Assembly (NCBI RefSeq): GCF_044324785.1
Contig: NZ_CP172127.1
DNA length: 64,000 nt
Source of the DNA: Escherichia coli
Lineage (GTDB): Bacteria; Pseudomonadota; Gammaproteobacteria; Enterobacterales; Enterobacteriaceae
Reading direction: 5' to 3' (one strand)
Below, one piece after another: positions 3,276-3,920 of the stretch. Position numbers and translations under genes: made by a program. The notes beneath the pieces are model-generated. The model saw nothing but the letters and a program-made list of their open reading frames with translations, was not told the DNA's origin and searched no databases. Each line of letters starts with the position of its first letter. The first letter of the stretch is position 1.

Positions 3276-3920
3276 ATGAGCAGAATTATCACCATCACAG
3301 TGTATACGCTGGATGAACTTTCCTGCCCGGCACGGGAAAAAGCCCGCGACGGGTACCGTCAGCATCATGCTGACAGCAGCTGGTATGAAAACGTGTATGA
3401 GGACTTCAGGGCGGTCTGTGACATTGTCGGGATTGCCCTCCGCCAGCGAGTTATCCGGCTCAGCAGCGGCAGGTTTATGGAAGAGCCGTGCATCTGGTTC
3501 AGCGGCTTCAGCAGCCAGGGGGACGGAGCCTGTTTTGACGGGCGCTGGCACTGGCAGCCGGCAACAGCCAGGAAAATCCGGGAATATGCCCCGCAGGACC
3601 GTGAGCTTCATCGTATCGCGGATGCCCTGCAGGCGGTGCAGAAGCGTAACTTCCGGCAGCTTCAGGCTGAAATCCGCCACCGGGGACGCTACTGCCATCC
3701 GTACAGCATGGATATCACCGTCACCCGGGACAGTCCGACTGGTCAGGCTATGACAGCCGATGCGGAAGCCGCTGTCAGCGAAGCCCTGCGCGACCTGGCC
3801 TTCTGGCTGTACCGTCAACTGGAAAACGAGTACGACCAGATGACCTCAGACGCCGCTGTGGATGAGGCCATTCTCATCAATGCATACATCTTCACCGAAA
3901 CCGGTCAGCGCACCGGCTGA
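3276..3920 (+). CDS. Hypothetical protein, 214 aa, no family recognised
   Basis: ORF starts 15 bp after the DUF987 gene and ends 50 bp before the antitoxin gene; balanced amino-acid composition, whereas the overlapping alternative-frame ORFs are Ser/Arg/Ala-rich. Confidence 0.55.
   Translation: MSRIITITVYTLDELSCPAREKARDGYRQHHADSSWYENVYEDFRAVCDIVGIALRQRVIRLSSGRFMEEPCIWFSGFSSQGDGACFDGRWHWQPATARKIREYAPQDRELHRIADALQAVQKRNFRQLQAEIRHRGRYCHPYSMDITVTRDSPTGQAMTADAEAAVSEALRDLAFWLYRQLENEYDQMTSDAAVDEAILINAYIFTETGQRTG

What the first reader, a model, noticed from the sequence alone, without database searches (positions are those of the whole stretch)
3276..3920. Unassigned 214-aa gene inserted inside the conserved DUF987-antitoxin-toxin module
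In the CP4-type modules I know from K-12 (yeeS-yeeT-yeeU-yeeV; ykfG-ykfH-yafW-ykfI; yfjY-ypjJ-yfjZ-ypjF) the DUF987 gene is followed directly by the CbeA-type antitoxin. Here a tightly packed 214-aa ORF sits between them, 15 bp after the DUF987 stop and 50 bp before the antitoxin start. It has balanced protein-like composition and no motif I can place (no P-loop, no HxH, no helix-turn-helix). Its position next to a type IV toxin-antitoxin pair and downstream of antirestriction and RadC-like genes makes it a candidate accessory or defence component of unknown mechanism.
Basis: partly seen in the sequence, partly recalled or inferred. Interest (0 to 1): 0.65.

Follow-up and report, generated by a model that had tools for sequence, protein, structure and literature searches.

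The report
Common island gene, lost in K-12
The 214-aa gene is real, but it is not an insertion: it belongs to a large catalogued family of unknown function (DUF8835) carried by phages, conjugative elements and E. coli islands, and K-12 lacks it only because it was deleted there.

Summary
The ORF at 3276-3920 (+, 214 aa) exists as described, 14 nt after DUF987 and 49 nt before the CbeA/YeeU antitoxin. It is a real gene: more than 3,300 clusters at 50% identity, dN/dS 0.20-0.40, and an AlphaFold model with pLDDT 96.

It is not an insertion. A near-full-length copy (at least 80% of the gene) occupies this slot in about 1,930-1,940 of 5,426 complete E. coli genomes. The "empty" slots carry its remnants. 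K-12 CP4-44 keeps the ATG and first 19 nt. The O157-type module keeps the last 113 nt. K-12 is therefore a deletion derivative.

RefSeq already names the protein, as "antitoxin of toxin-antitoxin stability system" or DUF8835. The antitoxin label is unsupported. No antitoxin domain was found, and no toxin partner was found in 79 of 80 phage loci or 79 of 80 genome loci.

Function is untested. My best guess is an early-entry establishment or counter-defence factor (about 0.4). Novelty: already known as a family. Interest is modest.

The parts
3276..3920 (+). Gene X: 214-aa protein of the DUF8835 family, named 'antitoxin of toxin-antitoxin stability system' in RefSeq; PHROG 5162
   Evidence: ORF. 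100% identical to WP_072648643.1 in strain GF60. 3,345 clusters at 50% identity. dN/dS 0.20-0.40. AF2 pLDDT 96. PHROG 5162 E=1e-35.
3262..3275 (+). 14-nt spacer between the DUF987 stop and the X start (close packing, likely translational coupling)
   Evidence: Sequence. The same spacing class, 14-18 nt, is seen in other E. coli copies.
3921..3969 (+). 49-nt spacer carrying the cbeA ribosome-binding site (AGAGAGGA). A 34-bp deletion inside it creates the short-spacer and fusion alleles seen in other strains.
3040..3261 (+). DUF987 gene (YeeT/YkfH/YpjJ family), upstream neighbour
   Evidence: ORF. 94.5% identical to K-12 yeeT. RefSeq and Pfam annotation of collinear loci.
3970..4338 (+). CbeA/YeeU-family type IV antitoxin, downstream neighbour
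   Evidence: ORF. 93% identical to K-12 cbeA. PF06154 in collinear loci.
4429..4839 (+). CbtA-family toxin gene with a 1-nt deletion near its 3' end. The last 9 residues are replaced and the ORF is extended by 12 codons.
   Evidence: Alignment to an intact copy. RefSeq marks the GF60 counterpart 'frameshifted'.
2501..2977 (+). RadC-like JAB-domain gene
   Evidence: ORF. Annotation of collinear loci.
2000..2485 (+). Antirestriction gene (ArdB/KlcA type, PF03230)
   Evidence: ORF. Annotation of collinear loci.
1090..1908 (+). DUF932 gene, first gene of the co-directional block
   Evidence: ORF. Annotation of collinear loci.
4802..5227 (+). DUF5983 (YeeW-like) gene, last gene before a terminator-like hairpin
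   Evidence: ORF. Annotation of collinear loci. Hairpin at 5271-5289.
1012..1041 (+). Terminator-like hairpin (12-bp stem) upstream of the block. No sigma-70-like promoter match on the + strand between here and 5289.
   Evidence: consensus scan only, not evidence of function.

Best explanation
The ORF is a functional or recently functional member of a large family of stand-alone, soluble, mostly acidic proteins of about 214 aa (DUF8835, PHROG 5162) that travels with mobile DNA. In E. coli it is an original component of the DUF932, ArdB/KlcA antirestriction, RadC, DUF987, X, CbeA, CbtA cassette of tRNA-integrated islands. The K-12 modules that lack it lost it by deletion. Its database name, 'antitoxin', is unsupported. 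Most likely (inferred, about 0.4) it is an early-entry establishment or counter-defence factor. On this view it is made soon after the element's DNA enters a new cell, together with antirestriction and DNA-processing proteins. It would act alone, binding or modifying a host factor or small ligand through the conserved surface formed by the glycine-rich S-G-F-x-S-Q-G-D-G-A-x-F-x-G hairpin loop and His141. Shown here: the gene is real and under purifying selection, its position is ancestral, it is independent of the toxin-antitoxin pair elsewhere, it associates with antirestriction and leading-region-type genes and with phage terminal repeats, and no related solved fold was found. Inferred: the timing of expression, the target and the biochemical activity.
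For: Real gene.

Standard and ancestral in the slot. A copy covering at least 80% of the gene is in 1,942 of 5,426 genomes, and the DUF987-X-YeeU stretch is at least 80% covered in 1,928. K-12 CP4-44 keeps X nt 1-19 and then has a 640-bp gap. The O157-type module has a 546-bp gap and keeps the last 113 nt. The two deletion junctions occur in 2,820 and 2,912 genomes.

Stand-alone mobile-element gene. At least 504 IMG/VR contigs carry it. In the best 80 no neighbour family recurs in more than 11 of 72 loci, and CbeA/CbtA are present in 1 of 80.

Phage location. It lies in phage terminal repeats, or among arrays of small hypothetical genes of the kind often found in early regions.

Alphaproteobacterial elements. 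Homologues of 57-62% identity sit in a collinear same-strand block. Counts out of 80 loci: ArdC 44, ParB_N 62, a 138-aa protein 73, the Sno-type methylase/helicase 71, Toprim 55. A Sulfitobacter plasmid places it with SSB, H-NS and RadC.

Charge. The family is acidic, median pI 4.8 and net charge -16.

Literature. Leading regions of conjugative elements are enriched in anti-defence genes, SSBs, methyltransferases, toxin-antitoxin genes and many uncharacterised families (PMC11541004). ArdC acts in the recipient cell against restriction (PMC7213743, abstract listed). ArdC, RadC, ParB and Toprim domains are recurrent modules of conflict-related polyvalent proteins (PMC5512222).
Confidence: 0.5

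Rival explanations
1. X is a third component of the CbeA/CbtA type IV toxin-antitoxin module. It could be an accessory antitoxin, chaperone or regulator, co-translated with CbeA.
For: X lies 49 nt upstream of cbeA on the same strand. An allele with only a 15-nt spacer or an in-frame X-CbeA fusion (342-343 aa) exists, and its junction is found in 455 of 5,426 E. coli genomes. In a Sulfitobacter plasmid an unrelated Xre/RES toxin-antitoxin pair lies directly downstream of X. Databases call X an antitoxin.
Against: CbeA/CbtA are found near X in only 1 of 80 viral loci and 1 of 80 genome loci. In alphaproteobacteria the downstream gene is a methylase/helicase in 71 of 80 loci. No antitoxin domain was detected. 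The two common deletion alleles remove X but keep cbeA-cbtA annotated as intact genes. The K-12 pair, which lacks X, is the type IV system characterised in the literature (PMC5371832 abstract). RefSeq treats the fusion allele as a pseudogene, and it needs only a stop-codon change in the short-spacer background.
Confidence: 0.1
2. X is a DNA-processing or replication-establishment helper rather than a counter-defence factor. It might work with the ParB-like protein, the methylase/helicase and the primase on incoming single-stranded DNA.
For: X holds a fixed position between ParB_N and the Sno-type methylase/helicase plus Toprim genes in 60-70 of 80 alphaproteobacterial loci. It is translationally coupled to a conserved 138-aa partner there, with an 8-nt overlap in 67 of 74 loci. 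RadC and SSB lie in the same regions.
Against: In phages X occurs without any of these partners: 0-2 of 80 loci for ParB, Sno, Toprim or the 138-aa protein. No nucleic-acid-binding or nuclease motif or fold was detected. The family is acidic, which is unusual for a DNA binder.
Confidence: 0.2
3. In this window the gene is inert baggage: an intact-looking but no longer useful remnant of a decaying island.
For: There are recurrent independent deletions of X in E. coli, frameshifted copies and fusion pseudogenes. dN/dS on the window lineage is 0.37-0.40. The neighbouring CbtA is frameshifted and no DUF957 ORF lies between DUF5983 (ends 5227) and DUF4942 (starts 5324), where other copies have one. 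The consensus Trp26 is replaced by Gly.
Against: All 25 near-invariant family residues are kept. dN/dS is still well below 1. Thousands of intact 214-aa copies are on record in E. coli (cluster sizes).
Confidence: 0.15
4. The ORF is spurious, a chance open frame.
For: None beyond the absence of Pfam and NCBIfam hits.
Against: Homologues of 57-62% identity and equal length occur in Alphaproteobacteria. There are 3,345 clusters at 50% identity. Selection is purifying. The AF2 model has pLDDT 96.
Confidence: 0.01

Closest known systems
DUF8835 family, also named 'antitoxin of toxin-antitoxin stability system' (RefSeq WP_072648643.1, UniProt/AFDB entries such as A0A5T9QVY1); PHROG 5162
   Same: The window protein is identical to WP_072648643.1. 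It is 57-93% identical over its full length to hundreds of entries with this name, has the same length of 214 aa, and superposes on AFDB models with TM 0.97. PHROG 5162 matches end to end with E=1e-35.
   Different: Nothing: it is a member. The family name itself describes no tested function, and the 'antitoxin' wording is not supported by the evidence gathered here.
Phd/YefM/RelB-type antitoxins, which the database name implies
   Same: Only the name, and the fact that in E. coli the gene lies next to a toxin-antitoxin pair.
   Different: X is 214 aa rather than about 70-100 aa. No Phd/YefM, RelB or ribbon-helix-helix domain was found. The gene downstream is another antitoxin, not a toxin. 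No toxin partner was found in most contexts. The fold is unrelated to any solved antitoxin.
CbeA/YeeU type IV antitoxin (PF06154)
   Same: Adjacent, on the same strand, occasionally fused in frame. Some phage records label X homologues 'YeeU-like antitoxin'.
   Different: No sequence similarity to PF06154. The fused proteins show PF06154 only in their C-terminal CbeA part. X occurs without CbeA/CbtA in 79 of 80 viral loci and 79 of 80 genome loci.
Antirestriction and establishment proteins of conjugative leading regions and phage early regions (ArdA, ArdB/KlcA, ArdC, Ocr)
   Same: Genomic company and orientation: X lies next to ArdB/KlcA and RadC in E. coli and next to ArdC, ParB and SSB in alphaproteobacterial elements. 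It lies in phage terminal repeats. It is a small, soluble, mostly acidic stand-alone protein.
   Different: No sequence or structural homology to any of them. No activity has been tested. Placement beside an oriT was not shown here.

Membership tests
DUF8835 / 'antitoxin of toxin-antitoxin stability system' database family | Full-length sequence similarity to named members | tested here: met
   100% identical to WP_072648643.1. 57-93% identity over 214 aa to many named members. Foldseek AFDB50 E down to 4e-37, TM 0.97.
DUF8835 / 'antitoxin of toxin-antitoxin stability system' database family | Match to the Pfam DUF8835 model above its threshold | not testable with these tools
   The Pfam-A copy available returned no hit at all, so it presumably predates this model. 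RefSeq applies the DUF8835 label to orthologous copies in the same slot.
DUF8835 / 'antitoxin of toxin-antitoxin stability system' database family | Conserved family motifs (N-terminal D-E-L; S-G-F-x-S-Q-G-D-G-A-x-F-x-G; His141; C-terminal W-x-Y, N-x-x-x-F) | tested here: met
   All 25 near-invariant columns of the 70-sequence alignment are kept in the window protein.
Phd/YefM/RelB-type (type II) antitoxin | Recognisable antitoxin or DNA-binding domain | tested here: not met
   No Pfam-A hit even at E<=10. No NCBIfam hit. No PDB sequence or profile hit.
Phd/YefM/RelB-type (type II) antitoxin | Cognate toxin gene immediately adjacent and conserved across homologues | tested here: not met
   The downstream gene is CbeA, an antitoxin. 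CbtA/CbeA are near X in 1 of 80 viral and 1 of 80 genome loci. The downstream gene is a methylase/helicase in 71 of 80 alphaproteobacterial loci. Only CbtA/CbeA were probed systematically, and one plasmid has an Xre/RES pair downstream.
CbeA/YeeU type IV antitoxin | PF06154 domain | tested here: not met
   No hit.
CbeA/YeeU type IV antitoxin | Neutralises CbtA toxicity | not testable with these tools
   Requires co-expression assays.
Anti-phage defence systems (PADLOC catalogue) | Match to a known defence protein model | tested here: not met
   0 families at E<=1.
Leading-region or early-entry anti-defence and establishment genes (a functional class, not a homology family) | Co-directional clustering with known antirestriction or establishment genes | tested here: met
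   ArdB/KlcA-type and RadC genes lie upstream in the window and in collinear E. coli loci. ArdC, ParB_N and the methylase/helicase are in the same block in 44-71 of 80 genome loci, all on the same strand. SSB is in the same region in a plasmid.
Leading-region or early-entry anti-defence and establishment genes (a functional class, not a homology family) | Located in the DNA that enters the recipient first, and expressed early | tested here: inconclusive
   Record annotations place X homologues within the terminal-repeat regions of several phage groups. The position relative to an oriT in conjugative elements, and the timing of expression, were not determined.
Leading-region or early-entry anti-defence and establishment genes (a functional class, not a homology family) | Demonstrated inhibition of a host defence system | not testable with these tools
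   No experimental report was found.

The most novel reading that the evidence does not exclude
DUF8835 proteins are a new, structurally unprecedented class of stand-alone early-entry effectors shared by virulent phages, conjugative elements and E. coli islands. They would neutralise a widespread host defence or stress response through the conserved Gly-rich loop and His pocket. The E. coli island cassette (DUF932, ArdB, RadC, DUF987, X, CbeA, CbtA) would then be a fossil 'leading region'.
Probability: 0.35. Interest if true: 0.6.

Novelty: already known. Interest (0 to 1): 0.3.

Why it matters
For the scan, this corrects a reference bias. K-12's CP4 modules are deletion derivatives, and the fuller cassette with this gene is common in E. 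coli.

More broadly, the family is very widespread and well conserved. It has more than 3,300 clusters at 50% identity. It keeps about 60% identity between E. coli and Alphaproteobacteria. It is present in hundreds of phage contigs. Yet it has no known function, a misleading database name, and a confidently predicted fold with no solved relative. Its consistent company of antirestriction and DNA-processing genes makes it a reasonable, cheap candidate for anti-defence or establishment screens. None of this would surprise a specialist.

Tried and rejected
- **Profile libraries.** Pfam-A, NCBIfam and PADLOC scans of X gave nothing. PHROGs gave only unknown-function families.
- **PDB by sequence.** A search by sequence and by a 70-sequence profile gave only chance-level hits.
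- **Literature.** There were no papers on DUF8835. 'Toxin-antitoxin stability system' retrieves only generic uses of the phrase.
- **Upstream partner.** I tested whether DUF987 in E. coli is homologous to the conserved 138-aa upstream partner in alphaproteobacteria. BLASTP gave E 0.034 over 31 residues and hhalign gave probability 0.2%, so I rejected this. The 138-aa protein has no Pfam or NCBIfam hit. A 200-aa upstream gene in a phage-like contig is unrelated to it.
- **Neighbour clustering.** In 80 viral loci no conserved partner emerged. The top neighbour families (SNF2-type helicase, MoxR-like ATPase, several unknowns) occur in at most 11 loci and were uninformative.
- **Probe artefact.** A 100-nt junction probe for the O157-type deletion was discarded, because the tool can join the two halves across the intact gene. 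It was repeated with an 80-nt probe.
- **Not done.** I did not attempt a linker-fusion complex prediction, because the tool reports no interface metric.

Full report
**Observation**

The DUF987 ORF (3040-3261) ends 14 nt upstream. The CbeA/YeeU-type antitoxin (GTG at 3970, ending 4338) starts 49 nt downstream.

The surrounding co-directional block has nine genes:
- DUF932 (1090-1908)
- ArdB/KlcA-type antirestriction (2000-2485)
- RadC-like (2501-2977)
- DUF987
- X
- CbeA
- CbtA (4429-4839)
- DUF5983 (4802-5227)
- DUF4942 (5324-6190)

These identities follow from collinear, 90-97% identical E. coli loci that carry RefSeq and Pfam annotation. A consensus scan finds no sigma-70-like promoter on the + strand between terminator-like hairpins at 1012-1041 and 5271-5289. 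That fits one transcription unit, but it is only a pattern match.

**Is it a real gene?**

Yes.
- The 90%-clustered protein database holds 3,482 homologues. Many clusters have hundreds to more than a thousand members of exactly 214 aa.
- An exhaustive HMMER search of 50%-identity representatives finds 3,345 clusters at E<=1e-3 and 356 at E<=1e-30. Nearly all are stand-alone proteins of 200-225 aa.
- The window protein keeps all 25 near-invariant positions of a 70-sequence alignment. These include E14-L15, the S-G-F-x-S-Q-G-D-G-A-x-F-x-G loop (residues 76-89), H141, W177/Y179, N202 and F206.
- Among four E. coli copies dN/dS is 0.20-0.40, with the fewest changes at second codon positions.
- AlphaFold2 with this alignment gives pLDDT 96 and pTM 0.88 for a compact alpha/beta protein.

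**Is it an insertion into the module?**

- Megablast of the gene against 5,426 complete E. coli genomes finds it in 2,827. In 1,942 of them a match covers at least 80% of the gene.
- The whole DUF987-X-YeeU stretch is found in 4,864 genomes (13,532 places). In 1,928 genomes it is at least 80% covered.
- In every example I opened, X lies in the same slot.

The modules without X carry its remnants.
- In K-12 CP4-44, the yeeT-cbeA spacer matches the window through the first 19 nt of X (ATGAGCAGAATTATC...). It then resumes 15 nt past the X stop, a 640-bp deletion.
- In the O157:H7-type module, homology stops at the DUF987 stop codon and resumes at window 3808. This is a 546-bp deletion that leaves the last 113 nt of X.
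- Junction-specific probes find the K-12-type junction in 2,820 genomes.
- They find the O157-type junction in 2,912 genomes (80-nt probe, single piece).
- The more divergent CP4-6 and CP4-57 modules, about 70% identical, show no trace.

**Is it unassigned?**

Not in the databases.
- RefSeq calls the identical protein (WP_072648643.1) 'antitoxin of toxin-antitoxin stability system'. It calls other copies 'hypothetical protein' and, in the most recent annotations, 'DUF8835 domain-containing protein'.
- AFDB relatives carry the same antitoxin name.
- The name has no support here. There is no Pfam-A, NCBIfam or PADLOC hit and no PDB hit by sequence or profile.
- At 214 aa the protein is much larger than antitoxins of that type.
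- The gene after it is an antitoxin, not a toxin.
- The literature search found no paper on the family.
- From memory, and unverified, the name may stem from an old Pfam 'RelB_N' domain defined by a D-E-L motif.

**Where else does it occur?**

Three kinds of mobile DNA carry it.

(1) Conjugative or integrative elements and plasmids of Alphaproteobacteria.
- Homologues of 57-62% identity and identical length lie in a rigid same-strand block.
- Counts out of the best 80 genome loci: ArdC 44, DUF2958 30, RadC 14, ParB_N 62, a 138-aa unknown 73, then X, then a Sno-type methylase/helicase of about 1,440 aa 71, Toprim 55, YAcAr 45.
- The 138-aa ORF overlaps the X start by 8 nt in 67 of 74 loci.
- 110 plasmid records carry X, mostly alphaproteobacterial.
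- One Sulfitobacter plasmid places it with SSB, H-NS and RadC, directly before an Xre/RES toxin-antitoxin pair.

(2) Phages.
- At least 504 IMG/VR contigs and 58 GenBank phage records carry it.
- The GenBank records include Caulobacter giant phages and Klebsiella and Salmonella jumbo phages. They also include Acinetobacter myoviruses of about 100 kb, the Pseudomonas Lana group and E. coli Av-05.
- In several groups the record annotation places the gene within the terminal repeat region.
- Elsewhere it lies among arrays of small hypothetical genes.

(3) The enterobacterial islands described above.

Across 80 viral loci no neighbour family recurs in more than 11. CbeA, CbtA, DUF987 and ArdB are present in only one locus. 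Among the 80 genome loci only one, from Salmonella, has CbeA/CbtA. X is therefore an autonomous unit, not a dedicated partner of the type IV toxin-antitoxin pair.

**Structure**

The confident model has this order of elements:
- a short N-terminal strand
- two helices (17-31, 38-51)
- a run of beta-hairpins (53-92) that carries the invariant Gly-rich loop
- two helices (97-124)
- a hairpin (129-151) whose loop carries H141
- a long C-terminal helical pair (163-201)
- a terminal hairpin

**How it most likely works**

What is shown:
- X is a conserved, selected, stand-alone mobile-element protein.
- It keeps company with antirestriction (ArdB/KlcA, ArdC), RadC, ParB, SSB, methylase/helicase and primase genes.
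- In phages it sits in terminal repeats.

Published work provides the frame.
- The first-transferred leading regions of conjugative elements are islands of anti-defence genes, SSBs, methyltransferases and toxin-antitoxin genes. A third of their most prevalent families are uncharacterised (PMC11541004).
- ArdC acts in the recipient against restriction (PMC7213743).
- ArdC-N, RadC, ParB and Toprim are recurrent conflict modules (PMC5512222).

I therefore infer, with about 0.4 probability, that X is an early-entry establishment or counter-defence factor. It would act alone on a host protein or small ligand through the conserved loop and His surface. The timing, target and chemistry are all inferred, and no experiment exists.

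Rivals:
- A helper for DNA processing or replication establishment (about 0.2). The fixed position between ParB and the helicase/primase supports it. The partner-free phage contexts and the acidity weaken it.
- A third component of CbeA/CbtA (about 0.1). Adjacency supports it, as does a short-spacer or in-frame fusion allele in 455 genomes. It is contradicted by independence from toxin-antitoxin genes elsewhere. It is also contradicted by cbeA-cbtA remaining annotated as intact in the deletion alleles.
- Inert baggage in this particular island (about 0.15, not exclusive of the others). Recurrent deletions, the higher dN/dS of the window lineage (0.37-0.40) and the frameshifted CbtA next door suggest it.
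- A spurious ORF, which is excluded.

**Comparison with the known, and verdict**

The gene is a member of a catalogued family (DUF8835, PHROG 5162). It fails every tested defining feature of Phd/YefM/RelB antitoxins and of CbeA. It matches no PADLOC defence model. It resembles leading-region anti-defence genes only in context and general character, not by homology.

Novelty is therefore 'already known' as an entity, with function unknown.

What remains of interest is a very widespread mobile-element protein with a mislabelled name, a fold without solved relatives, and a context that makes it a sensible candidate for anti-defence screens. Interest is modest, 0.3.

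Noticed in passing
window 3262-3934 versus L010 (K-12 CP4-44) 5040-5112 and L003 (O157:H7) 4001-4113: Two different, widespread deletion alleles of gene X. The K-12-type loses 640 bp and keeps the first 19 nt of X; its junction is in 2,820 of 5,426 genomes. The O157-type loses 546 bp and keeps the last 113 nt; its junction is in 2,912 of 5,426 genomes. Each is found in more genomes than the intact gene (1,942).
   Followed up: yes
window 3921-3969; L026 3001-4032; L027 895-1923; L028 892-1923: A 34-bp deletion in the X-cbeA spacer gives a 15-nt spacer. 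With an added TGA-to-TTA change it gives an in-frame X-CbeA fusion of 342-343 aa (P0011-P0029). The junction is in 455 of 5,426 genomes. RefSeq treats the fused X as a pseudogene. It could be a Rosetta-stone hint or simple decay.
   Followed up: partly
window 4429-4839 (indel near 4776): The CbtA-family toxin gene has a 1-nt deletion near its 3' end. This replaces the last 9 residues, extends the ORF by 12 codons and breaks the usual ATGA overlap with DUF5983. No DUF957 ORF lies between DUF5983 (ends 5227) and DUF4942 (starts 5324), where other copies have one.
   Followed up: partly
window 6262-6848 and 7731-9269: A ParD/ParE-like pair (87 and 108 aa, with a 4-nt overlap) lies between DUF4942 and cadC. 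The island therefore ends beside cadC, the pheU-side integration site. No tRNA gene lies in 1-10000, so the intact tRNA must be at the island's other end, outside this stretch. The same site carries related modules in ETEC4067 and in strains L025/L026.
   Followed up: partly
L004 7592-8008 and 73 of 80 loci among L109-L188: A conserved 138-aa protein with no Pfam or NCBIfam match lies directly upstream of X in alphaproteobacterial elements. Its stop overlaps the X start by 8 nt in 67 of 74 loci. It is unrelated to DUF987 (hhalign probability 0.2%) and absent from the 80 viral loci. It is a possible lineage-specific partner of X.
   Followed up: partly
L013 14704-15803 (Sulfitobacter plasmid NZ_CP025813.1): An MbcA/ParS/Xre antitoxin plus RES NAD+ phosphorylase toxin pair lies directly downstream of X. 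This is a second case of a toxin-antitoxin pair lodged right after X, in an unrelated element. The site may be a hotspot for toxin-antitoxin insertion.
   Followed up: no
L022 (E. coli ETEC4067, next to cadC): The module there is rearranged. A segment carrying RadC, DUF987, X and the 5' half of the YeeU antitoxin gene is inverted relative to the rest, splitting the antitoxin gene into two partial pseudogenes.
   Followed up: no
P0001 (283 aa, E. coli): A variant of X with an internal tandem duplication of about 69 N-terminal residues. It is a single sequence on a 2.5-kb contig and may be an assembly artefact.
   Followed up: no
AFDB A0A4P9WST2 (969 aa, Blyttiomyces helicus): A 'fungal' DUF4326-labelled protein contains a domain 60% identical to X. 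This is most likely bacterial contamination or a merged gene model in that assembly.
   Followed up: no
L011 (K-12 CP4-57) 4920-5869: K-12 yfjX and yfjY are now annotated lfgA and lfgB. The RadC-like LfgB is reported to be a protease that cleaves the antitoxin MqsA (PMC10846083, seen). This suggests that other genes of this cassette can interact with toxin-antitoxin systems.
   Followed up: no
phage records (e.g. OP585105.1, NC_027399.1, MT708547.1): Phage homologues of X carry conflicting labels with no stated basis in the record fields shown ('RNA polymerase binding protein', 'YeeU-like antitoxin'). These look like propagated annotation errors.
   Followed up: no
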